Origin: Macrostomum lignano
Lineage: Eukaryota
Assembly: GCA_002269645.1 (NCBI GenBank)
Contig: NIVC01000785.1
Location: forward strand, 186,001-250,000
Direction of reading: 5' to 3'
Length of the DNA stretch: 64,000 nt
Both the position numbers and the translations under genes were made by a program. Within the stretch, counting starts at the first letter, position 1. Each line of letters starts with the position of its first letter. Under the pieces are notes generated by a model. That model was not told the origin of the DNA, searched no databases, and saw only the letters and a program-made list of their open reading frames with translations. Shown here piece after piece: positions 3,501 through 60,033 of the stretch.

Positions 3501-4378
3501 ATCAATCATGCTAGAGAAATCAAATCAGGCTGATAAGCAAGTTCCAGTTAAGGAGCATAATTACAACTTATACAACAAAGCATACTAGAGCAAAGCCGCT
3601 TAGCACTAGCTAGTTAGCTATACTCATACTCGCTTGATAATTAAGAAGGTAAGCCAAAAAAATGCATAAATCTTCCATCTCAATAAAGCACTAATTTCTT
3701 GCTAGAGCTATTTCTGCCCCGAAGAATCATGATGATCTATAGTCAAGTAGGTACGCGTCCACTCCATAGCGAATGAAGTAATTCGAGAGGTTTAATCTCC
3801 CAACATGCATTGAACTGTCCTAAGAAGCCACAGCCACACCCTAAATGCATACTTTTTCGTGACTATTTCTTAGTAAACTAATTCAAGCCATTTGATTGCT
3901 TTGAAAGAATCATACATTCGTTAAGATGAATTTTCAAATGCTATATGTTTTATTAAAAGCATGGAGGATAGGCCTAACCACACCCTCATTCAGCAAATAT
4001 CTCAAAAAGGATCTATTCATATGTACCATGGATATAACTGAATTTGAATGAGTTAGCCTTGCCATTTGTCTTGGAAACAACAATGATTTCTACTGTCCCA
4101 ATTGACCAATAAACTAGTCTCACTGTAAAATAGGAATGCTACACTACATGCTTGGCATTGTAGTCATGCATCCCAATGTTATCATTAAAAACTGGTTATA
4201 ATAGGCTTGGCATGCCTTTTACTAACTTTGATAAGTTTTCTATTCTAATACCATTGACAATATTAAGATCTGGTTATTCAAGGGAGCTATAGAGCCTATC
4301 TTGCTATATATGGGCTAGTGGAGGTAGTCCCTATTATAATAGGTTAACTAGCTTATATTGCACTTTAGATGTTTCTTA

Positions 4379-5494
4379 TGTAGTGAGCCGCTAGTTTATG
4401 GCTAGGCGTCACCCTTGTCAGCCGTTCCCTCGCCCTCCCTTTGGGTTGCTGTCTGCCGCTGGTCAGCTTCCCGCCCTCCTTTCGCTTGCCTGTTGCCCCC
4501 GTGTCCTTTCCGCCCTGCTGCGTTTCCGTTCTCAGCCCTCAGTCTCTCGACTGTGGGCTGTCTCTGTTTCGCTCCCGTCCCGTTTTCCCTGTCTTGTGAG
4601 CAAGTCACATGACAGTTCTTGCGTTCTTTGAGTCTTAAAGTGCAGTAAACATGTTTACTGCACTCGTTGGCCCTGTTTACCGGGTGAGTCACGTGCTTTC
4701 GGACCCCTCCCTTCTCTAAGGAGAGGAGTGACTCATGTTGCTAAAAATAGCAACTGAGTCACAGCCGCGTGTACTCTGGCCGGGGACCTCAAGTGACGTC
4801 AGTTCTAAAAATAGAACAAGTCACGAGGTCTTCCGCGCGCTTGTACCCTGCCCAAGACTCTCGAGTGACGTCAGTTCTAAAAATAGAACAAGTCACGAGG
4901 TCTGGAGCGTGGGAATTTCCCGGCTATAAATAGGAGCCCTCTCCCCCTTGTTTCCGTCAAGGAGTCTTCCTTCTGTTCAACCTCGAGTTCTACGTCCGCG
5001 TGTGACTAAGTCCCGAGTGTCCGAGTCTTTGCGCACATTGATTCTGTTCCTATTGCTCCGACTGAGACCCGACCAAACCAACCCAAGTCTACGAGAGGCT
5101 AACTCAGCCCTCCCTGTACCATCCAAGCCCGGCAGGTGCTGCTGACGAGACGCCTTATACGTTGAGCTGCAAATCTGCACGTCGTGCTGTGTTCGTTGAC
5201 TTCATTATTTCGTTCCGACGGGAAGCTCACCTCACCGAAGGCCGAGACCTGAAGGAACTGGTGGCAGCACTACCTACGCTACTGAGAGAGTTCAGAAGGC
5301 TTCCGAGTGAGAAGACGGAGGGCCCAAGTCACTGCGCTGTACAGCAGGACAACCACAGGTACAACATTGGTGGCAGAGGTGGGATTCAAAGACCTACCAG
5401 GCCACCCCGAGAAAACCCCAAAGTATTTCACTGGTGGCAGCGGTGGGATTCAAAGACCTACCAGGCCACCCCGAGAAAACCCCAAAGTATTTCA
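4379..5494 (+). mobile_element. Solo LTR, probably Gypsy-like, copy 1 (young)
   Basis: TG...CA termini; 4-bp TSD CTTA on both sides; TATAAATA at 4925; duplicated U3 enhancer block; two tRNA-Leu PBS-like motifs (5368-5387, 5432-5451); homologous to 58557-59639. Confidence 0.88.
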
Positions 5495-5610
5495 CTTACT
5501 ATTAGCTACTATATTATAAGATAGCTAGCAACCTGCTTGCAAGTGCCATGACTACTAAAGTACCAATTATATTCCAAATCATGTTGACTACATGGTCGAA
5601 TATACATAAC

Positions 5611-35029: not shown

Positions 35030-35725
35030 TTAGCTGATGTACAGGGTGTTGAGCACCAATACGTGGTGATTGTTTTTAGCCAGGGTCACCACATAGCCCT
35101 CGCCAGTGATCTTCAGGCCGCAGCAGCGGGACACTTTCACAGTCGGGCACTCGAACTCGGAGGTCAGCTGGCCCAGCCTGTTAAACACGGCCACGTGGAA
35201 TTTGTTGCCATGGGAATCGCCGACTAGAACGTCGCCGTGGTCGCTAATGTCGATGCCGTTAGGGAAATTGGTGATAGCCTCGGAGCCGATGCGGCGAAGG
35301 TACACGCCATCCTCCTGGAACACGCAGACGCAGTGGCCCTTGAAGTCGCAGATGAAATACTCGTTACCGTGGATAGCGATATCAGACGGCTCGCGCATAT
35401 AGCTGGAACAGTCGAACCATTTCACCAGATCGCCAGCCTCGGCGATGACAAACACGGTTGGCGACACGGAGTCCACGGCGACGATGTGCTGCTTACTGTT
35501 GATAGCCAGGCCGGCCACAATGTCAATGTAGCGGATGGTGATTTTGCGCAGGAAATTGCCGGACCGGCTGAAGATCTGCATACGGCTGCGCTCGCTGCCG
35601 CGGTCGCACACGATGAACTTGCCAGTTTGGCGGGCCACCACCACTTTGCGCGGATACCAGAGCTGGCCCTCCTCTCGGCCGGGCACGCCGAATTGGAATT
35701 TGTGCTCGCCGGATTTTTCGAATAC
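35030..35725 (-). CDS. mei-P26: TRIM-NHL mei-P26/NHL-2 ortholog, coding exon 7 (NHL repeats, stop)
   Basis: Acceptor TTGCGCAG; [28 protein letters not shown]...[14 protein letters not shown]...[11 protein letters not shown]...[30 protein letters not shown] closely matches Drosophila Mei-P26 NHL as I recall it, not Brat. Confidence 0.93.
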
Positions 35726-35859
35726 CTGCGCAACAAATATGGGAGTCAGGCTTTTTTCTAACTACTACTATCAGTACTAAGTAGAGAGAGTCACGTAGGG
35801 TATCCAATTGAATCGTTTGAGTCATTGTACGCGACTCTTGTGGCGACTCAAATCGGGCT

Positions 35860-35998
35860 TTCAAGGGAGCAGCTCTCAGCGCCACGACCCCCTTGCTTCG
35901 ATTCCGTGCGCAGCATATCCCGGCCAACACCCAAGAGAGTGTACATGCCTGACGATTAGAAAGTCAGGGCTGCTGTACACTCTGTGTGGGCGTGTGCT
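35860..35998 (+). mobile_element. Diverged, internally deleted SINE family A copy (intron 6)
   Basis: TTCGATTCC head remnant; GTGTACATGCCTGACGAT...AGGGCTGCTGTACACT matches the family A body. Confidence 0.6.
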
Positions 35999-36061
35999 CA
36001 TATGTTTTGTTACGCTACTAAGAATTCGTATTTAGAAAATTTTGTCTGTTCTCTTTTTTAC

Positions 36062-36694
36062 CTGAACTCGATGATTTTGCGTGTCGGCCACAACAATTTC
36101 TTCGTCAACGCCCAGACAGAAGCCGTGGGGCGAATTGAACTGACCCCTAGACGAGCCCAGCGAGCCCCAACGATGCCGTACAGTCATCGAAGAGCAGCGG
36201 CCCATGCGATTAGGGTAAGAGCTACTGCCGCCGCCGCCGCTAGCAGAGGATTGCAGCGGGCTGCCCAGACTGCCGGGCGCTCCGCCGCCTGTGATGACGC
36301 CGCCGCCAGTCGCGGCGCCGAAATCCAGGCTGCCAGTCGGCGTGCCAGTTCGACCAATGGCGGCGGCGGCCGCTGCTGCCGCGGCGGTGCTGAGAGCAGC
36401 GGGATCCGTGACCAGCTGCAGCTTGGCGGCTAGCATAGAGCTCAGCAGCGCATCGGAGCCGTTGCTAAGGCCGCTGTCCGAGCCGGGGGCGCCGGGGCTT
36501 GGCTGCGATTGCGTCGGTGGCGGCAGGCCAAACAGGGCCGGGTTGCTGTAGGCGGCGGCGGCCGCGGCTACGGCGGCAACCGAAGGGTTGGAGGATGCGT
36601 GCGCGGCATCGAGTGCCGGCTCAGAGACCGCGACGGCGCCTTCGACATCGGCGGCGCCGACACTGCCAGCAACGGACGCGACAATCGAGGTAGC
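36062..36694 (-). CDS. mei-P26: mei-P26-like exon 6 (Ala/Ser/Gly-rich linker and first NHL repeat)
   Basis: Acceptor CTCTTTAG; open phase-0 frame ending GQFNSPHGFCLGVDEEIVVADTQNHRVQ; donor GTAAAA. Confidence 0.88.
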
Positions 36695-36705
36695 CTAAAG
36701 AGAGG

Positions 36706-37925
36706 GCAGAGGCGGTGCCCCAATGAATAACCAGGGGGAGGGGGTGGGTGCGAGAGAGAGGCGGTGGCCATATAAATAATCAGGTGGGGTGGCTGCGAGA
36801 CAGAGGCGGTGGCCCTATAAATAATCAGGGGGGTGGCTGCGGGACAGAGGCGGTGGCCCTATAAATAATCAGGGGGTGGCTGCGAGACAGAGGCGGTGGC
36901 CCTATAAATAATCAGGTGGGGTGGCTGCGGGACAGAGGCGGTGGCCCTATAAATAATCAGGGGGTGGCTGCGAGACAGAGGCGGTGGCCCTATAAATAAT
37001 CAGGGGGTGGCTGCGGGACAGAGGCGGTGGCCATATAAATAATCAGGGGGGTGGCTGCGAGACAGAGGCGGTGGCCCTATAAATAATCAGGTGGGGTGGC
37101 TGCGAGACAGAGGCGGTGGCCCTATCAATAATTAGGGGGGGTGGCTGCGGGACAGAGGCGGTGGCCATATAAATAATCAGGGGGGTGGCTGCGAGACAGA
37201 GGCGGTGGCCCTATAAATAATCAGGTGGGGTGGCTGCGAGACAGAGGCGGTGGCCCTATAAATAATCAGGGGGGTGGCTGCGGGACAGAGGCGGTGGCCA
37301 TATAAATAATCAGGGGGGTGGCTGCGAGACAGAGGCGGTGGCCCTATAAATAATCAGGGGGGTGGCTGCGGGACAGAGGCGGTGGCCATATAAATAATCA
37401 GGGGGTGGCTGCGGGACAGAGGCGGTGGCCATATAAATAATCAGGGGGTGGCTGCGGGACAGAGGCGGTGGCCATATAAATAATCAGGGGGTGGCTGCGG
37501 GACAGAGGCGGTGGCCATATAAATAATCAGGGGGTGGCTGCGGGACAGAGGCGGTGGCCATATAAATAATCAGGGGGGTGGCTGCGGGACAGAGGCGGTG
37601 GCCATATAAATAATCAGGGGGGTGGCTGCGGGACAGAGGCGGTGGCTATTTAATAATCAGGGGGGTGGCTGCGGGACAGAGGCGGTGGCTATATAAATAA
37701 TCAGGGGGTGGCTGCGGGACAGAGGCGGTGGCCATATAAATAATCAGGGGGCTGGCTGCGGGACAGAAGCGGTGGCCCTATAAATAATCAGGGGGGGGGG
37801 TGGCTGCGGGACAGAAGCGGTGGCCCTATAAATAATCAGGGGGGTGGCTGCGGGACAGAAGCGGTTGCCCTATAAATAATCAGGGGGGTGGCTGCGAGAC
37901 AGAGACGGTGGTCCTATAAAAAACA
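36706..37925. repeat. 43-45 bp minisatellite filling intron 5
   Basis: Unit CAGGGGGTGGCTGCGGGACAGAGGCGGTGGCCCTATAAATAAT, about 27 copies. Confidence 0.97.
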
Positions 37926-37966
37926 GAGGGTGGTGGGAATGGGCCAAGTCGCTGTTCAGGTCTCAC

Positions 37967-38446
37967 CTGCAGGTCTCCAGCCGTGGTGGTGGTCACGGGA
38001 GCTGCAGCAGAAGCAGCAGTGACAGTGCCAGAATTAATCTGAGCCCTATCGCTGCCAAAAGTGCCGAAATTGGCCATTACAATGGCTTTAAAACTGGGAT
38101 GATTGGCCGTGAAGGGCACTGATGTGGGCAGGTCAGTGTCCCAGTGGGCCCGGAGCAGAGTGGCAGACCAGTCGTGCAGCACTTTAGCAGCGTAGGCCAG
38201 CACAACGGGCCCGGCCCGGTCAGTATACGCCTGTACAAAGCTGGCAGCCTCGGCCATCTGCTCGGCGCCTTTGGCAGTGTGCTCCATTAGCTCCATAGCG
38301 CGCATCTCAAGCTCGGAATGGACTCGACGATTCTCTTCAAGAAATCGTTTGCCAGCTTCGTCTAAGAAGGCCCGATAGCTGGCCAGGGCCTCCTTGATGG
38401 CGCCTTCGTTGTGCTGGCGGCTGTCGGCGATTTCGGACAAGCGCTC
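37967..38446 (-). CDS. mei-P26: mei-P26-like exon 5 (coiled coil)
   Basis: Acceptor CCTTCTCAG; ERLSEIADSRQHNEGAIKEAL...GDLQ; donor GTGAGA; 160 codons. Confidence 0.88.
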
Positions 38447-38659
38447 CTGAGAAGGGGGTAGAGAGATTGCCGCTAAACTGTGTTAATATGAAATGCTATC
38501 TGTACTACTCAGTGCATTTAGTAAAAGCTTCTGCGCATAACTTTTAAAAGTGTAAATTCATACGATATGAAGAATAGCAATATCCATTAATTATATTTGG
38601 ACTTAAGCGTGTATGGTGTTTATCTGTCTTTACTAGAGGCAGGTATAAAAATACAGTAC

Positions 38660-38955
38660 TAGTGATAGACCGAATGTGGATTTATGCAAGCTTCCGAAAC
38701 CGAATCCGAATGTACAAAAAATTCCGAATTCGAATGTGTTTCCGAATGTAAGCAAAGTAAAGGGTGAACGGCGGGAGTAACTATGACACTTTTAAGTAAC
38801 GAAAATGCCTTGTCGTCTAACTAATGATCTAAGTAAGCAACTAGACTACTCTTTAAGTGAAATTCAAGTGAAATTGCAAGGATTGAAACTTAATAGAGAC
38901 TAAATAAGTTTGAATAAGCGAGACATTTTTTTCGGATTCGGCGGATTCATCAATA
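38660..38955. mobile_element. hAT-type MITE carrying a 28S rRNA fragment (intron 4)
   Basis: Imperfect TIR TA(G/T)TGAT; CCGAAT subterminal repeats at both ends; TSD TACAGTAC / TACAGTAG (7/8). Confidence 0.8.
38762..38827 (+). other. 28S rRNA fragment (helix 69 through the R2/I-PpoI target), ~80% identity
   Basis: GGGTGAACGGCGGGAGTAACTATGACACTTTTAAGTAACGAAAATGCCTTGTCGTCTAACTAATGA vs conserved GGGTAAACGGCGGGAGTAACTATGACTCTCTTAAGGTAGCCAAATGCCTCGTCATCTAATTAGTGA; first 26 nt match 25/26. Confidence 0.88.
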
Positions 38956-39044
38956 TACAGTAGATATGAAACAGCTTTTGAAAACGCACTGTACTTACAT
39001 CAATGAATATAAAATGTGTACTAAAACAAACATGGATGACCAAC

Positions 39045-39248
39045 CTGCAGTTTATCCTGCTCTCGCTCCCAACGCCGCCGACTATCGCGCAGAGATCGAG
39101 CGTCTTGGCTAAGCAGAGTCTGCAGTTCGGCACCGGCAGTGGTAGCCTGATCAATATTGTGCAGCTTGTGCCCGGTGGCCACACATTCCGGGCAGTGAAG
39201 ACTGCCACAATCACGGCAGTAGTATTTCAGCTGATCGGCTGGGTGCTC
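39045..39248 (-). CDS. mei-P26: mei-P26-like exon 4 (B-box 2, start of coiled coil)
   Basis: Not in the ORF track; my translation EHPADQLKYYCRDCGSLHCPECVATGHKLH...DKLQ completes C-x2-H with exon 3; AG/GT boundaries; 68 codons. Confidence 0.9.
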
Positions 39249-39332
39249 CTGGTTGGGATGGGTGGGGACAGGTTTAATGGTTTGAAATCGATCGCATAGA
39301 AGCTAGATAATGCCAACCATTCATACATGTAC

Positions 39333-39557
39333 CTGGCAATAAATAGGCTTATGCAGCAGTCCGCTATCAGCCTCGGGGTCGCTACCCGGCTGCTCAAGAT
39401 CTTTCACGTGGTGACGGCTGAACATTTTCATAACGGAATGCGCCTGTCGGCAGGTGCTGCACAGATAATCGGCGCATTCACGACACTTGGCCACGGCCTC
39501 CGCTCCGGTGGTGCAGCCGCCGCATTTCACCTCGGCTAGATGGGAGCCTTGCAGTTC
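39333..39557 (-). CDS. mei-P26: mei-P26-like exon 3 (B-box 1)
   Basis: CGGC...C-x2-C...C-x2-C-x3-H...H pattern; acceptor CCGCGCAG; donor GTACAT; 75 codons. Confidence 0.9.
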
Positions 39558-39659
39558 CTGCGCGGATGAAAAGGATGGGGGAATACTATAATTAGGCCAG
39601 GGTACAATAATGTAACACCAGTACTGAGTAATACCGAGGTTTGAGCTTGTAAAGTTGAT

Positions 39660-39735
39660 CGCCACACACACACCCTCAGTTACCCCAGCTAATGCTGGCA
39701 CCCATTTTACAGCTGGTCCTGCTCAAGGACGCATA
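39660..39735 (-). mobile_element. SINE family B fragment (intron 2)
   Basis: CCCAGCTAATGCTGGCACCCATTT...GCTCAAGGAC matches 570-630. Confidence 0.65.
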
Positions 39736-39936
39736 TCACGGTACAAGTCGCTAAAAAGTCGTCAAAGAGTTGCCTAAGAATCAATTTGAAGCGTTTTATC
39801 GTCTAAGACTTTGAAATGATTCTGGGGCGACGGTATAACGACTTTCGGGTCGTATAGTCACTGAGTTGCGTTCGAAGCGCATTTGCATTGCTTGATGAAT
39901 TAGAGTCACATCACGTGACGCGCTTTTGACGCTTTT

Positions 39937-40303
39937 GCCGTAGCCCAGCGGTCTAGCGCAGCTGCTCTGGTGTGCCAGCGACCCAGGCTCGATTCCAAGT
40001 GCAGTCACATTAATTTGGGGCTCAATTGGAATCTCGGCTTGGCTCTGCTCGTGCAATTAACGGCCTTGAGAGCCAACCCCCCAAGGCGCAGTGAAGTGTA
40101 CATGCCTAACGATAAAATAAAGTTAGGGCCGCTGTACACTCCTGTGTGAGTGTGTGCCTGCGTACGTATCCGCGCGCTTGTGTGCCTGCTCAGGGGAGTC
40201 GGCGGAATGGGCAGTAATGCCTCTCGCCGGTTGTGTGCCTATGTCGCTTAAAGTGCGCCAGGGTGCACACAACCCCCTGCCTCTAATAAGAAAAAAAATT
40301 AAA
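39937..40303 (+). mobile_element. tRNA-derived SINE (family A), copy 2 (intron 2)
   Basis: A/B box head, body and A-rich tail colinear with the reverse complement of 24052-24420. Confidence 0.85.
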
Positions 40304-40326
40304 TCGCAACAAACTTAACAACTCAC

Positions 40327-40683
40327 CTGCAAGTACAGGTGATCTCTAGTCAGGCCAGCCAGTCCAGCCTCCGGATTAAGCACGGTAGGAGTCTGGCAGC
40401 GCGGACAGAACAGCAGGAAACCGCCAGCCGCGGCAGCCTGAGCGGCCTCCAGACAGGGCAAATCGAACCGGTGCAGACAGGCCAGAATCACCGGCTCGGT
40501 CAGCTGACGCTGGCACAGGGAGCATTCCGAGTTCGCGCCGCCGATTATCGCGTCTGCGCCGTTACCGCCGCCGCCGCTACCGCCGGCGCTGCTGCCGGCC
40601 CGGCCGCCGTCGCCGCTGCCGTTCAAGCCGGAGCCATTGATGTCGTCGTCGGCGTCGCTGCCGAAAGTTTCGCGCAGAAGGTT
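40327..40683 (-). CDS. mei-P26: mei-P26-like exon 2 (RING finger)
   Basis: Acceptor ATTTTCCAG (phase 0); CSLC...CLHRFDLPC...CPRC; donor GTGAGT; 119 codons. Confidence 0.87.
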
Positions 40684-40946
40684 CTGGAAAATCAGTGGCA
40701 ATGGGCCGGTAGGCTCTATCAATAAATTATTATTCATATTCTTACCGACTCTTCTCAGTGATCGGATGAGATAAAAATAATCCGGATCAGGATCCCATGT
40801 TATGAATTTTGGATTAATGGTGTCATTTCGGATACTGTCCAATCTGTAACTAGAATTAGAGGATCGGACAAAGGAAGCAAAACGTTCGGGAGTTGGTACC
40901 GTCCCATTTTCACTGGAATTATTCTAGGCCCTTAGGACTAGGAGGC

Positions 40947-44020: not shown

Positions 44021-45646
44021 ATGGATCCAAGGGACGTAGGGAGAGTCAGAGGCAGAGGCCAGAGTTTGCCAATACATGTTTTAGAGTCAGATAGACATTG
44101 CTTGACATTCTGCATAGCATCTCAGCCAACAATATCAAATGTTTGCCTGAAATCCTAATTTTACAAAAACGTACTCCATTTTATGTGTACTCTATCTTAC
44201 AAACTTTTAACAAGTTTGTTTGAGTATGGCCTTAGATTTCAAAGCCTATGCACAAATATTTTAGGGAATTGGAATTCACTGGGTTCAAAATCCACGGGTT
44301 TCAAAAGCTTATATACTATAAATTTCAGTGTTTTGCACAAGCAAAGCCAAGCCAAAGTTTCAATTTAGCCTACAAATTAATGTGACTAAACTTGGAATCA
44401 AGCCTGGGCTATTGGCATATCAGAGTGCCATACTATACCTCTAGACTAAGCCTTTTAAATTAAAGTCAAATGTTCAAAATGCCATATATCCTCAATTCAA
44501 AATGTGCTTACAAATTGTTAGGCCTTTCTTATCTAACTTAAGTATTATATAGGGGATAATTATATATTTTAAATATTCTGATAAAAACTTAACTATAAAA
44601 AAGAAAACTTATTATAATATAAATTATTTTTATATAACTTGCTATATCTTATTATAAAAAGTAATCATATCATTAATATAACTTTTATATTCCTTTTTTA
44701 AATTGGAAGTGCTTATCCCCACAGGCCACAGTCCCATACTGATAATTCCAATTTTATATATATGGATATATGTTGATAATTTCTAGCTTATCCCCATAGC
44801 AGCTTATTAAAATGGCTGCCACCATTCAAGTCTAGGCTATGTCAATAATTCAAATTTTATTCACACAGATCCATGTTGATAATTTTTAGCTTATCCCCAC
44901 AGCAGATTGGAATAAAGAATCTTAAAATGAATCTGTTAAAAAAGCATCTATTTGTTTTCACTGTTTTACAAATCTTCCAATTTAAATAAACTAGGGCCTA
45001 TTGAATTGAATACTGAATAGTATTGAGTACTTTGTTAAAACTTTTTTATCATTAAAAGGATTAATTTTAAATATTTGCTTAGCTGTTGGCTTTGCTTAGA
45101 ATGACTAAACAACCCTAAAATTGAGGCAAATGAGATGAGACTTGCAAAATTCAAAATGTAATAATAATAATGATTAATAATACTGATAATGACAATATCA
45201 ATTTAACATCAGTACACAAAACTAAACACAAACAACTGCAGAATCTTAGCTGTGGGGATTAGCTAAAAATTATCAACATGGATCTGTGTAGGCCTAGATA
45301 AAATTGGAATTATTAACATGGCCTATAGACTTAAATAGTGCAATGGAAGCTATTATAATAAGTGGTTCCAGCCAAAGTTGTCATATTTGAGATTGTCATC
45401 TGCAGCTTACGGGAAAAACAACTAGATTATCTAAATTGTCATCATCTCAGTATTAGACAATGCTGCATTCACTAAATTGTCATATTGTGTTGCATTGGCT
45501 ACACAAGGATCTTAGCTCATGGTGGCAGCATATTTTTGTTTGGCAACAAATTAAAATGATTTACAGTGTATAACTTAATGCTTATTCAAACTACAATACT
45601 TGTATTCTAGAAACTTCCGCAAAACACGCACTTTCTATAGGCCTGT

Positions 45647-47825
45647 GATGTCATTGCACTACAGGAGATGTCTATCAGAGCCGACCTCAGACTTTACTGT
45701 GAGGACCTGGGCGCCGGTTGGACACTCTGGTACACTCAGCGGATGAGCCGTGGAGGAGTTGGAGCGCTGATCGGACCAAGGCTGCAACAGAGCTGTCGCT
45801 GCGTCTCCTTGTCTTCTTGGCTGCTTTGGGTTGATATCCAACTTTGCGGCCGGAATGCCCACCTGTTCTGTGCATATGCGCCACCTGCTACCTGCTCCAA
45901 TGAGGCTCAGGCCTTCTTTGAGCAACTCTTGGTGTGGGTGGAGGGGATGGCACAACGTGACACAGTGGTCATTTTTGGAGACCTGAATGCAGTTCTGCGT
46001 AGGTCCGAGCAATTGCTGTTTGTGACAGCGCGCAAGAACGGCAACACCGGAGCGCTAGAGGACTTCTTGGAGAGACAGGACATGGTGTCGGCCAACACCA
46101 GATTCTGCAAGGGAAGATCTGGAGAGGCTCCATCTGAGTGGGCGGCAAAATTGCGAGGCGGAGGAGACTCTGGTGGCTGTTTACCTGCAGCGGCAGCAGT
46201 TTGCTGTCGTTGACGCCATTCAAGCCATCTCTGACGCAAGGCCCGATGCCAGAGGGCGCGTAGCCTGGTCCATCATCACTCTGACGGGGCAAAAGCGGCG
46301 CATCGCGCTCAACCTAGCAGGCAACACTCTGGATGAACACAAGAATGAGCTGCGCGAGTTCTTCGCTGCCATTGTCAACGCACCACCTCTTCCACTTCCA
46401 GAAAATCTGAGACTGCCGCTGGAGATGCCGTTGCTGGCAGAGGAAAGCTTCAACGTTGCCCCAGTCAACACAGCCGATGTTGTGAAGTTTGCTTAGCAGT
46501 CGCTAGGCGGCAAAGTGCTTGGTCTGGACGAGGTGCCCACCGAGGTGCTACGGATCCATTGCGTGGCTACTGAGGTCGCCAGAGTTATGAAACGCGTGCT
46601 TTCTGGTGAGGTGGCGCCAAACGAATGGACCACGGCGCACATCATTGCCATTCCAAAGAAGCCGGGCACCACCAAGCTTGAGGAGCATCGAGGCATCTGC
46701 CTACAGTCCTGCGCCACAAAGCTGTTCAACCGCATGCTACTATTGCAGTTACAGCCTGTGCTGGACCCGTACCTGCGGCCTGAGCAGAACAGATTCCAGC
46801 CCCATCGCGGCACAGTGACGCAGATCCTGGCTTTTTGGCAAGTCATCGAGGGGGCGCGCATCCACCAGTTGACCCTGATCCTGATTGATTTCAGGAAGGC
46901 CTTTGACTTGGTCATGAGTGACGCACTCCCAGAGGTGCTCCATGCGTATATGCCAGAGCTGCTGATTTCTGCTGTCATGGCGCTGTACCACGGCACAACG
47001 GCTGCTGTCTCAACACCGGACGGCCTATCGGATTTCTTTGAAACATCCTCTGGGGTGCTCCAAGGAGATACGCTAGTGCCGTTCCTATTTATTCTGGTGC
47101 TTGACTAGGTGCTATGGACTGCTCTGCCTTCCAACAACGACGGCTTCCTGCTGTGGCGATGTGTGGGTCAACACCAACTAGAGAGACGGCTCAGCATGCT
47201 TGGCTACGCCGATGACCTCGCCCTGCTGTCCTCGACCGTCGAGGGCGCCCAACGACAGCTGGATAGGCTGGTTGCCGTTGCGGCAAGCGTCGGCCTGGTA
47301 GTCAATATGCAGAAAACCGAAGTGCTATGCATGCCAAACCACATTGAGGCTACAATCTTTTGCCAAGCGCTGACGGACAGGAGAGTGAGCTTCCAAGATG
47401 TCAGCAGTTTGTCTACCTCGGTGGTCTGGTTCCTGACATCTGCAAGGATCTGCTGCGTCGCCGAGGACTTGCCTGGGCTGCCTTTCATTCTATAAGCCTG
47501 CTGCGTGCCGCCTTCAAGATTGGCAACGAGCGAGTCACCAACATGGTGCTCTATCATTGCACTGGCCTGGCCCATCCTAGCAATCTGCTATGCCGTCGGC
47601 GACTCCAGCTGGCAGGCCACGTCATCAGCGCTGAGGCCTACTATCTAGAGCCAGTGCAGGAGGTGCGCTACTTACGTTGCAGACACCCTACCAGTAAGGA
47701 CAGGCGAGGACTCGGCACTACGTCAACTGTCTACTGGCTGATGCCGGCGCCCCGGACTCTGCTGGTGGTGCGGCCTTTGTTCGCATCCAAGCTTTGAAGT
47801 GCACAATTGACGCTGCTTTTGTGAA
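45647..47825 (+). mobile_element. Decayed RTE-like non-LTR retrotransposon (APE endonuclease and RT)
   Basis: EN motifs DVIALQE, GGVG, AYAP, GDLNA; RT motifs IPKK, DFRKAFD, GVLQGDTL, YADD; stops, frameshifts and internal deletions. Confidence 0.93.
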
Positions 47826-57994: not shown

Positions 57995-58556
57995 GCTGTA
58001 AAAGAGGTACCTGTGAGAGGAATAGCAATGCTAGAAGATTGGTAGCTCCCTTTCAAAACTAGTAGCCAGTAATAGGCCCTAGCTGTGGCAAATAAGCTAT
58101 ACCAAATAGGCTATGCACGAAATAGGCTATGAGTAGGCCATTGGGAAGTTGCTTTTTTAAAAAGTACCAGCACCTTAACTAGTACTGGAAGTTATTATCC
58201 AGTACTGGGAACATAAAGGTTGGTAAACAGTAAAATACTTATAGACCTAGATATTTTTTAATTTTTGGTTATTTTTTAAAATAGGTTTTATTTTTCCTTT
58301 TGATTTCTTTTTGTAATGACTTTATAAAAAAAGAATTGAATTTATACCAGTTTTTTTAAAGTATTAGAATATTTATTTGCTAACACTAATAGAAAAATAA
58401 TCTAATCTAAACCAAAAGTATAAAGTAGTTTTTAAATCTAAAACCAATTTTAGATTAAATAAAATAGGGCCTATATGCAAATATACTAGGCCTTAGGCTA
58501 AATTAACATATCAAATAAGTTATATTAATAACTTAAACAGTATATTATTTTGCATG

Positions 58557-59639
58557 TGTAGTGGGCCGCTAGTTTAGTGTTTGGCGTTCCCCTTTGTTAG
58601 CAGTCTCCCTCGCTCTCGCCCTGGGTTGCTATCTCCCGCTGGTCAGCTTCCTACCCCCTTGGCCCATTTGTTGTTGCCCTTGGCTTGTTCTGCCCTTCCA
58701 GGTCTCTTTTCTTAGCCCTCAGCTTCTCTGCTGCAGGCTGTCTCTGTTTCATTCCCATCCCATTTTCCTCTGTCATGTGAGCAAGTCACATGATATATCT
58801 TGCATTCTTGGAGTCTTAAAGTGCAGTAAACATGTTTACTGCACTCGTTGGCCCTGTTTACCAAGAGAATCACATGCCTTCGGACCCCTATCTTCTCTAA
58901 GGAGAGGAGTGACTCATGTTGCTAAAAATAGCAACTGAGTCACAGCCACATGTACTTTGGCCAGAGACCTCAAGTGATGTCAGTTCTAAAAATAGAACAA
59001 GTCACAAGGTCTTGTGCGCACTGAGACACTGCCCCAAGACCTCAAATGACATCAGTTCTAAAAATAGAACAAGTCACAAGGTCTTTTGCACGGGAGAATC
59101 CTGGCTATAAATAGGACCCCTCTATTTAGTCACTTGTTTCCATCAATGAGTCTTTGCCGGAGTCTTTGCGTGCTTCTAAACTTCTAAGATCCCTTGTGCA
59201 TTATTGACTGAACTAAGTGCCCTTTGCTTACACTGAATCTGCTTGTACTGGTCTGACTAAGACCCCACTAAAGCCCAACCTCAAGCCTACAAGAGGCTAA
59301 CTCAGCCCTCCCTGAACCAACCAAGCCTGGCAGGTGCTGCTGATGAGATGCCTTGTATTGTTGAACTACAAATCTATACCCGGTGCTGAGTTTGTTGACT
59401 TTGTTATTTCATTCTGACAGGAAGCTCACCTCATTGAAGGCTGAGACCTGAAGTAACTGGTGGCAGCACTACCTATGCTACTAAGAGTTAAGAAGGCTTC
59501 CAAGTGAGAAAACAGAGAGCCCAAGTCACTATGCTAGACAGCAAGAGAAACCCCAAGACAACCATAAGTATTTCACTGGTGGCAGCAGTGGGATTTGAAG
59601 ACCTACCAGGCCACCCCGTAGACAACCATTAGTACTTCA
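58557..59639 (+). mobile_element. Solo LTR, copy 2 (old, CpG-decayed)
   Basis: Colinear with 4379-5494; TG...CA; TSD CATG/GATG (3/4); one PBS-like motif at 59577-59596. Confidence 0.87.
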
Positions 59640-60033
59640 GATGTTATTCTATATATTAGACCTATTATTTAGAATATTCTGTATAGTATTCCTACATTCT
59701 ATATATTTTGTGTATTACATATATTCTATAAATTATATATTTTTCCATTTTCATTTTTCTATAATGTGGATAAACTTTATAGGATATAGAATAATATTTT
59801 AATAATTCATGACTTACTCATAGCTTATTGTTTTTCATATAAAAGTTATAGTTTTTTGTATATTTAGAGTACAAGCATATTTAGCTATTGTATTTTCTAT
59901 TGTCCGTTTCAGATTTGTTTTATTAATATATAGCTTGAATCTAAAAGAAGTTAGCAACTAATCCTGACATTACTCTGCTTTGTTAAAGTGCACTTCCTGT
60001 GTGCTAGATTGTTGGAGAAATCTACTTCACAGG

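What the first reader, a model, noticed from the sequence alone, without database searches (positions are those of the whole stretch)
5368..5494. Solo LTR whose integrated end contains tandem tRNA-Leu primer-binding modules
Seen: inside the TSD-bounded unit (CTTA...CTTA) are two 64-bp modules of PBS (TGGTGGCAG(C/A)GGTGGGATTC, complementary to the tRNA-Leu 3' end GAAUCCCACCGCUGCCACCA) + spacer + att-like end (GTATTTCA). The independently inserted copy at 58557 has one module. Established: a PBS normally lies just outside the 5' LTR and is lost in solo LTRs. Inference: U5 in this family grows by duplicating PBS-att modules, so full-length elements carry 2-3 PBSs. This could give redundant priming, decoys against 3'-tRF silencing, or an unusual replication route.
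Basis: partly seen in the sequence, partly recalled or inferred. Interest (0 to 1): 0.75.

Follow-up and report, generated by a model that had tools for sequence, protein, structure and literature searches.

The report
LTR ends grown from primer-site modules
Two isolated ends of a jumping gene in this animal genome carry one and two copies of the tRNA primer site inside the repeat, where such elements normally have none, and a second animal shows the same design, likely because copying starts from a later primer site and so pulls the earlier ones into the end.

Summary
Observation confirmed. Unit A (4379-5494, TG...CA, CTTA on both sides) ends in two 64-bp modules: tRNA-Leu primer-binding site (PBS), spacer, att-like CA end. 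Unit B (58557-59639, CATG/GATG, 83% identical) ends in one. Contigs of public runs confirm A's two junctions. A and B share the PBS-spacer junction, so the module is inherited, not a one-off accident. A metagenome scan found three loci of another animal with the same layout but an unrelated spacer. One is a 359-bp element made of five modules plus an inverted module tail, with a 4-bp duplication. Another ends in an extra PBS followed by different sequence, as predicted for a 5' end. Best reading: solo LTRs of a Ty3/gypsy-like family whose reverse transcription likely starts at a downstream PBS, so upstream PBS-att modules become U5. No full-length element of the window's family was seen, and the host tRNA was not checked. 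A's second module may be a later slippage copy. Redundant priming and tRF-decoy roles are untested. Six targeted literature searches found no description. New variant of a known kind; interest 0.6.

The parts
4375..4378 (+). left target-site duplication of unit A (CTTA)
   Evidence: junction covered by a single-copy-depth contig (X5 record 25)
4379..5494 (+). unit A: solo LTR, 1116 bp, TG...CA, two terminal modules
   Evidence: no gypsy coding remnant in the window by tblastn with the L006 polyprotein
4639..4664 (.). perfect 26-bp palindrome in the U3-like part, identical in unit B
4766..4903 (+). two 66-bp direct repeats 72 bp apart (86%), enhancer-like, U3-like part
   Evidence: function inferred
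4925..4932 (+). TATA-like box (also at 59106 in B)
   Evidence: promoter role inferred
5257..5268 (+). truncated PBS word (PBS0) identical to the att-PBS junction 12-mer; likely fossil of an older captured junction
   Evidence: 4 occurrences in the window, all in A or B; highest summed depth bin in 4 of 4 runs except X1, where it is second; origin inferred
5359..5366 (+). first att-like end (att0) of the LTR body
5368..5387 (+). PBS of module 1 (tRNA-Leu-AAG type, one mismatch)
5388..5430 (+). spacer plus att1 of module 1; 5393-5406 is predicted to pair with the PBS
5432..5451 (+). PBS of module 2
5452..5494 (+). spacer plus att2 of module 2, the integrated right end
   Evidence: junction confirmed by X4 record 24 (5456-5580, 0 other letters)
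5495..5498 (+). right target-site duplication of unit A (CTTA)
58553..58556 (+). left target-site duplication of unit B (CATG)
58557..59639 (+). unit B: second solo LTR, 1083 bp, CpG-decayed, one terminal module
   Evidence: 867 of 1041 aligned positions identical to A; CpG o/e 0.22 against 0.78
59456..59467 (+). truncated PBS word (PBS0) of unit B
59568..59575 (+). first att-like end of unit B
59577..59639 (+). single module of unit B: PBS (59577-59596), spacer, att
   Evidence: 51 of 63 identical to module 2 of A
59640..59643 (+). right target-site duplication of unit B (GATG, 3 of 4)

Best explanation
Units A and B are 1.1-kb TG...CA repeats with 4-bp flanking duplications that end in two and one PBS-spacer-att modules, and they are most likely solo LTRs of a Ty3/gypsy-like family whose reverse transcription likely starts at a PBS downstream of the modules, which would copy every upstream module into U5 of both new LTRs. 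Steps: (shown) modules lie inside the integrated unit and end at an att-like CA; the same module junction is present in two copies 17% apart. (Established, recalled textbook mechanism; outlined in PMC10886601) everything between the RNA 5' end and the priming PBS becomes R-U5 of both LTRs. (Inferred) the parent RNA therefore read U5-att-[PBS-spacer-att]n-PBS-leader and was primed at the last PBS; integrase used the last att; LTR-LTR recombination left the solo units. (Inferred) the module began as a duplication of the U5 tail plus PBS, and module number changes when the plus-strand strong-stop DNA pairs with the wrong PBS copy in second-strand transfer, or when an internal PBS primes. I favour a largely neutral or selfish accordion over a benefit to the element.
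For: Both window copies stop exactly at a module CA with a 4-bp flank match. Module divergence A vs B is 12 of 63, close to the LTR body (88 of 551 and 37 of 254), so it is inherited. Contigs from 3 of 4 laid runs join the U5 body to the spacer with no PBS between (joint 5288->5389 or 5453), so the spacer plus att also exists as a plain U5 end. One contig goes PBS-side, other spacer, att, PBS (X1 5463->5427). Same layout with an unrelated spacer in another animal (spacer identity to the window 0.30-0.43): L003 has three modules and then a fourth PBS followed by different sequence, and its PBS mismatches run 2,2,0,0 from 5' to 3', as expected if only the last PBS is renewed from tRNA; L002 is bounded by GCAT on both sides. 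The same 18-nt PBS is used once, next to the LTR, by an intact gypsy-order element (L006). Engineered precedent that PBS position decides what is copied: LTR1 vector (PMC5542766, passages).
Against: No full-length element of the window's family was seen, so neither the terminal PBS nor equal module numbers in both LTRs is shown. A's two modules are 62 of 63 identical in a window with 82 TRF rows, so the second may be a slippage copy made after insertion. B's duplication is 3 of 4. The 5'-to-3' decay gradient is absent in L002 (1,0,0,0,1) and L001 (0,0). L001 has no recognisable left end or duplication and L003 no right end. The three metagenome loci come from one assembly and were selected for tandem PBSs. 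The matched lengths on either side of the X1 joint were not displayed.
Confidence: 0.6

Rival explanations
1. One module is a fixed old part of this family's U5 (gained once by downstream priming), and further copies are ordinary tandem duplications made in the chromosome after insertion; there is no replication-driven accordion.
For: A's modules are 62 of 63 identical; the window is full of minisatellites (82 rows); B has one module.
Against: Both A and the five-module L002 end precisely at a module CA with the duplication intact, which slippage allows but does not require; L003's graded PBS decay and shared modules on three different LTR bodies fit growth at the PBS end.
Confidence: 0.2
2. 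The module exists only at the right end of the cDNA and is remade in each cycle: the plus strand copies the tRNA end, slips back onto the U5 tail and copies it again, giving a new att that integrase uses; solo LTRs keep that 3' end.
For: The spacer plus att exists as a plain U5 tail in some copies. PBS overhangs at cDNA ends are real and reactive in Tf1 and HIV-1 (PMC11042837, Discussion). Solo LTRs cannot tell which LTR carried the module.
Against: In A and B the spacer's first part is not present upstream of the first att, so it could not be copied from their own U5; the junction is the same in both copies; L003 shows modules at what looks like a 5' end. It may still be how the first module arose.
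Confidence: 0.1
3. The units are truncated 5' LTR-plus-leader fragments or decayed TRIMs, and the flanking matches are chance.
For: B's duplication is imperfect; in A two of the four right-hand letters fit a continuing module; no empty site was found in the window.
Against: Three bounded units (A, B, L002) end at a module CA with 4-mer matches of local chance 0.005, 0.027 and 0.012. No purine run of 8 or more lies in any module of A, B, L002 or L003, so there is no PPT and no second full LTR as a TRIM needs.
Confidence: 0.07

Closest known systems
Solo LTRs of tRNA-Leu-AAG-primed Ty3/gypsy elements (Gypsy-130_CGi, Gypsy-57_CaAu as printed in the supplement of PMC10886601; lennie and ta-TRIM of taeniid flatworms, PMC4558846; L006 here)
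   Same: Same PBS type, TG...CA ends, 4-bp duplications (ta-TRIM 52 of 57, lennie 63 of 65).
   Different: There the PBS is single and lies outside the LTR (L006; passages); here one or two complete PBSs and a truncated one lie inside the integrated unit.
TRIMs and tandem TRIM arrays (biv-TRIM PMC6934838; Helenus and Ajax PMC10886601; Cassandra, listing only)
   Same: Small non-coding LTR derivatives; PBS between repeated ends; tandem forms; Helenus has tRNA-derived sequence inside its LTR and 4-bp duplications in animals.
   Different: TRIM units are LTR-PBS-PPT-LTR; the module has no PPT and repeats only about 44 bp of U5 tail. Helenus carries a sense tRNA-like pol III promoter, not an antisense PBS.
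Two-PBS retroelements: Drosophila gypsy 5' and 3' PBS (PMC1635307), HIV-1 with dual PBS (Li et al. 1997, title seen in the reference list of PMC11181671 only), LTR1 vector (PMC5542766)
   Same: More than one tRNA-binding site per genome; LTR1 shows that PBS position sets what is reverse transcribed.
   Different: Gypsy's second site binds a different part of the tRNA at the far end of the RNA and is dispensable; the HIV cases are laboratory-made. None is a natural tandem array of PBS-att units inside the LTR, as far as the passages seen show.
Integrase-independent tandem insertion of Tf1 through PBS overhangs (PMC11042837)
   Same: PBS copies at cDNA ends pair with other PBS copies and build tandem structures.
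   Different: It yields whole tandem elements sharing an LTR, without integrase; here 64-bp units end at an att with a target duplication.

Membership tests
Solo LTR of an LTR retrotransposon | TG...CA ends with short inverted termini | tested here: met
   left end TGTAGT; right ends match its reverse complement at 4 of 6 (A) and 5 of 6 (B)
Solo LTR of an LTR retrotransposon | 4-6 bp target-site duplication | tested here: met
   A 4 of 4, B 3 of 4; no empty site available
Solo LTR of an LTR retrotransposon | dispersed multi-copy family with promoter-like U3 | tested here: met
   two copies in the window; summed contig depth far above the flanks in 4 of 4 runs, not a copy number; TATA-like box and repeats
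Solo LTR of an LTR retrotransposon | no PBS inside the unit | tested here: not met
   two PBSs in A, one in B; this is the departure reported
Solo LTR of an LTR retrotransposon | a parent element with the same sequence as both LTRs | not testable with these tools
   no genome held; runs are short contigs
Ty3/gypsy (Metaviridae) | pol in the order PR-RT-RH-IN and RT phylogeny | not testable with these tools
   no coding region linked to the LTR; tblastn with L006 found nothing in the window or L001-L003. Assignment rests on the PBS type and 4-bp duplication only
Ty3/gypsy (Metaviridae) | PBS complementary to a host tRNA 3' end | tested here: inconclusive
   matches tRNA-Leu-AAG of another animal over 17 nt; host tRNA not available
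TRIM (incl. tandem TRIM, Helenus, Ajax) | two full terminal repeats around PBS and PPT | tested here: not met
   no second full repeat; no purine run of 8 or more in the modules
Helenus / Ajax (TRIMp3) | tRNA- or 5S-derived promoter in the LTR | tested here: not met
   no tRNA by ARAGORN; no tRNA or 5S match in Rfam for unit A down to E 10

The most novel reading that the evidence does not exclude
In tRNA-Leu-primed LTR elements of several animal phyla, PBS-spacer-att units are selfish mini-cassettes: they add themselves at the primer end of the LTR during reverse transcription, pass between unrelated LTR bodies through PBS pairing, leave a polar record of past priming sites (the truncated site at 5257 being the oldest here), and can be integrated with no U3 at all, as the 359-bp all-module element L002, whose left end is a 35-nt inverted module tail as snap-back synthesis would give.
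Probability: 0.25. Interest if true: 0.82.

Novelty: new variant of a known kind. Interest (0 to 1): 0.6.

Why it matters
The PBS is taken to mark the outer edge of the LTR, and annotation tools rely on that. A natural family in which PBS-att units sit inside the integrated end, in variable number, would show how LTR boundaries move in evolution and would give a natural test of which of several identical primer sites is used and whether 3'-tRNA fragments, reported to repress LTR elements through the PBS (PMC12853362, abstract start only), select for or against extra sites. It would also mean that many solo LTRs scatter intact tRNA-binding sites through the genome. If the all-module element is mobile, it is among the smallest integrase substrates.

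Tried and rejected
Whole-genome copy census: impossible, no genome held. Module counts from public runs: not possible; all four runs are short contigs and the answer showed 15 of 57 joints, 24 of 677 loose ends and 32 of 4830 pieces. No RNA holder listed on record; no conclusion on expression. Tandem-PBS pattern: 0 hits in viral contigs and 0 in prokaryote genomes, both uninformative for animal elements. Single-PBS scan of viral contigs: 2 loci, one a chance match in a phage terminase gene (L005), one a gypsy-order element of another family (L006); no further relatives of L006. Rfam: 2 weak matches, both far below gathering score, treated as chance. tRNA-side motif scan gave one T-arm-like stretch (L004) that ARAGORN did not call and that is not the host's. 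PBS masking by the spacer as a general rule: rejected. It is weakly supported in the window family (17, 26, 17 and 37 of 1000 shuffles; 22 tests in all) and upstream of L001's first PBS (11 of 1000) but not in the modules of L001-L003, and predicted accessibility does not favour the last PBS. Empty-site search in the window: none. The 152-aa frame over the modules was not followed: it has no start codon near its beginning and runs out of the unit. Earlier scan notes: nothing on this genome or sequence; 8 notes on palindromic or self-priming sites in other genomes do not bear on this. Host: an invertebrate-type brat/mei-P26 gene lies in the window; a recalled guess at a flatworm host led to and stayed unconfirmed. 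Li et al. 1997 is not held.

Full report
1. Observation. Unit A spans 4379-5494, begins TG, ends CA and has CTTA on both sides. Unit B spans 58557-59639 with CATG left and GATG right. These are the only two long copies in the window. They agree at 867 of 1041 aligned positions, and B has lost most CpGs (o/e 0.22 against 0.78). In A the module has period 64 and two copies, 62 of 63 identical; B has one, 51 of 63 identical to A's second. The local chance of the flank match is 0.005 for A and 0.027 for B with one mismatch allowed. In A the first two letters of the right CTTA are also the start of a further module, so the stronger point is that both units stop exactly at a module's CA. Public contigs confirm A's left junction (X5 record 25) and right junction (X4 record 24, 5456-5580, no differing letter); none of the listed pieces spans both modules. 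These runs may include the window's source, so they guard against assembly error only.

2. Anatomy. Upstream lie LTR-like features: a 26-bp perfect palindrome, two 66-bp repeats and a TATA-like box. Then come a truncated PBS word (12-mer at 5257 and 59456, identical to the att-PBS junction and absent elsewhere in the window), a first att-like end, and the modules. The PBS matches tRNA-Leu-AAG over the 17 nt printed in the supplement of PMC10886601, next to two gypsy families (supplement passages). The host tRNA could not be checked. The modules hold no purine run of 8 or more, and no gypsy coding remnant was found in the window.

3. The family beyond the window. Twenty runs of one organism, in nine studies, hold half or more of the sampled words. 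On four laid runs the summed depth over the unit is far above the flanks; the tool warns that this is no copy number. Two joints matter. In three of four runs a contig passes from the U5 body (5288) through 38 other letters directly into the spacer with no PBS, so spacer plus att also serves as a plain U5 end. In one run a contig passes from 5463 through 37 other letters back to 5427, that is PBS side, another spacer, att, PBS; it could be a second module or the normal 5' junction of a full-length copy, and the matched lengths were not shown. Only 15 of 57 joints and 24 of 677 loose ends were displayed, so modules per copy cannot be counted.

4. The same layout elsewhere. An exact tandem-PBS pattern found 3 loci in the metagenome collection, all from one marine assembly, and none in viral contigs or prokaryote genomes. 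The loci are AT-rich, animal-like DNA (inference) and share only the PBS with the window (spacer identity 0.30-0.43). L001 has two 60-bp modules and ends at the last CA; its left end was not found. L002 (4516-4874, minus strand) is a 359-bp element with GCAT on both sides (local chance 0.012), made of a 48-bp near-palindrome and five modules of about 62 bp; its first 35 nt are the exact reverse complement of a module tail. L003 (minus strand from 3423) has a 61-bp first unit, three modules and a fourth PBS followed by different sequence; no right end was found in the rest of the contig. PBS mismatches run 2,2,0,0 in L003, 1,0,0,0,1 in L002, 0,0 in L001 and 1,0 in A. The three first units differ from one another while the modules are related. 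Because the pattern selected for tandem sites, these loci show existence, not frequency. As a control, L006 is an intact element with protease, RT, RNase H and integrase-zinc domains in gypsy order and the same 18-nt PBS once, directly after the LTR.

5. Mechanism. By the standard scheme (recalled; outlined in PMC10886601, passages) U5 of both new LTRs is copied from the RNA between its 5' end and the priming PBS. A module that is inherited inside the LTR must then lie upstream of the PBS that primes. Inheritance is indicated because A and B share the junction and the module has diverged about as much as the body (12 of 63 against 88 of 551 and 37 of 254). So I infer a parent RNA U5-att-[PBS-spacer-att]n-PBS-leader primed at the last site, integration at the last att, and later LTR-LTR recombination. 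The module likely began as a duplication of the U5 tail and PBS. Number could change when plus-strand strong-stop DNA pairs with the wrong PBS copy or when an inner PBS primes. The LTR1 vector shows that PBS position decides what is copied (PMC5542766, two passages). PBS overhangs pair with other PBS copies in Tf1 (PMC11042837, abstract and Discussion). None of these steps was observed for this family.

6. Against this reading. No full-length copy was seen. A's second module could be a slippage copy made after insertion, in a window with 82 TRF rows. B's duplication is imperfect. The decay gradient holds in L003 and A only. A hairpin between spacer and PBS is predicted for A (z -2.4; 1 of 200 shuffles) but weak for B (z -0.8) and absent for L001's module; duplex tests gave 17-37 of 1000 in the window family and nothing in the other family's modules, and accessibility does not favour the last site. 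It therefore cannot explain why a downstream PBS would be chosen.

7. Comparison. It works like an ordinary tRNA-Leu-primed LTR element with 4-bp duplications (ta-TRIM and lennie, PMC4558846, passages), but fails the rule that the PBS lies outside the LTR. Gypsy membership rests on PBS type and duplication length only. It is not a TRIM or tandem TRIM (PMC6934838, passages), having no PPT and no second full repeat, and not Helenus or Ajax (no tRNA or 5S match). Drosophila gypsy's second PBS binds another part of the tRNA at the other end of the RNA (PMC1635307, passages). An HIV-1 with dual PBS is known to me only by a title in a reference list (paper not held), and the HIV-1 23-nt insertion beside the PBS by passages (PMC11181671).

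8. Novelty. Searches for tandem, multiple, two, duplicated, repeated or LTR-internal PBSs gave no description of natural PBS-att arrays inside LTRs. Earlier scan notes had nothing on this. Verdict: a real feature and a new variant of a known kind, seen in two hosts with unrelated spacers; mechanism inferred at about 0.6; interest 0.6, and about 0.8 if the modules prove to be mobile cassettes in their own right.

Noticed in passing
L002:4516-4874 (minus strand): 359-bp element made only of a 48-bp near-palindrome and five PBS modules, with GCAT on both sides; its left 35 nt are an inverted module tail, as snap-back synthesis would give.
   Followed up: partly
L001:785-860: The U5 end just before the first PBS is a diverged antisense copy of the PBS (z -4.3; 11 of 1000 shuffles); the modules after it belong to the L002/L003 type, not to this LTR body.
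   Followed up: partly
L006:1-5276: Intact single-frame gag-pol element (1571 aa) with the same PBS, LTR ends that are not TG...CA, and an unusual ADD motif at the RT active site; family not determined.
   Followed up: partly
window 5257-5268 and 59456-59467: Truncated PBS word about 110-120 bp upstream of the first module PBS, well conserved across the family; fossil junction or auxiliary tRNA site.
   Followed up: partly
window 58557-59639: Strong CpG decay in unit B (38 of A's CpGs read CA or TG) against a CpG-rich unit A, pointing to methylation of older copies.
   Followed up: no
window 4639-4664 and 4727-4759: A perfect 26-bp palindrome, identical in A and B, and a neighbouring inverted repeat in the U3-like part.
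   Followed up: no
window 35030-40923 (minus strand): Exons of a brat/mei-P26-like TRIM-NHL gene (NHL part 80% identical to an insect protein), with minisatellites in its introns.
   Followed up: partly
window 45641-47108: Fragments of a non-LTR retrotransposon (endonuclease-like and RT-like frames; names recalled).
   Followed up: no
joint 5202->5267 in run X5: The 13 letters between the sides include a telomere-like TTAGGG-type stretch; unexplained.
   Followed up: no
L004:280-325: 3' half of a tRNA-like sequence in a viral contig, possibly an attachment site; not called by ARAGORN.
   Followed up: no
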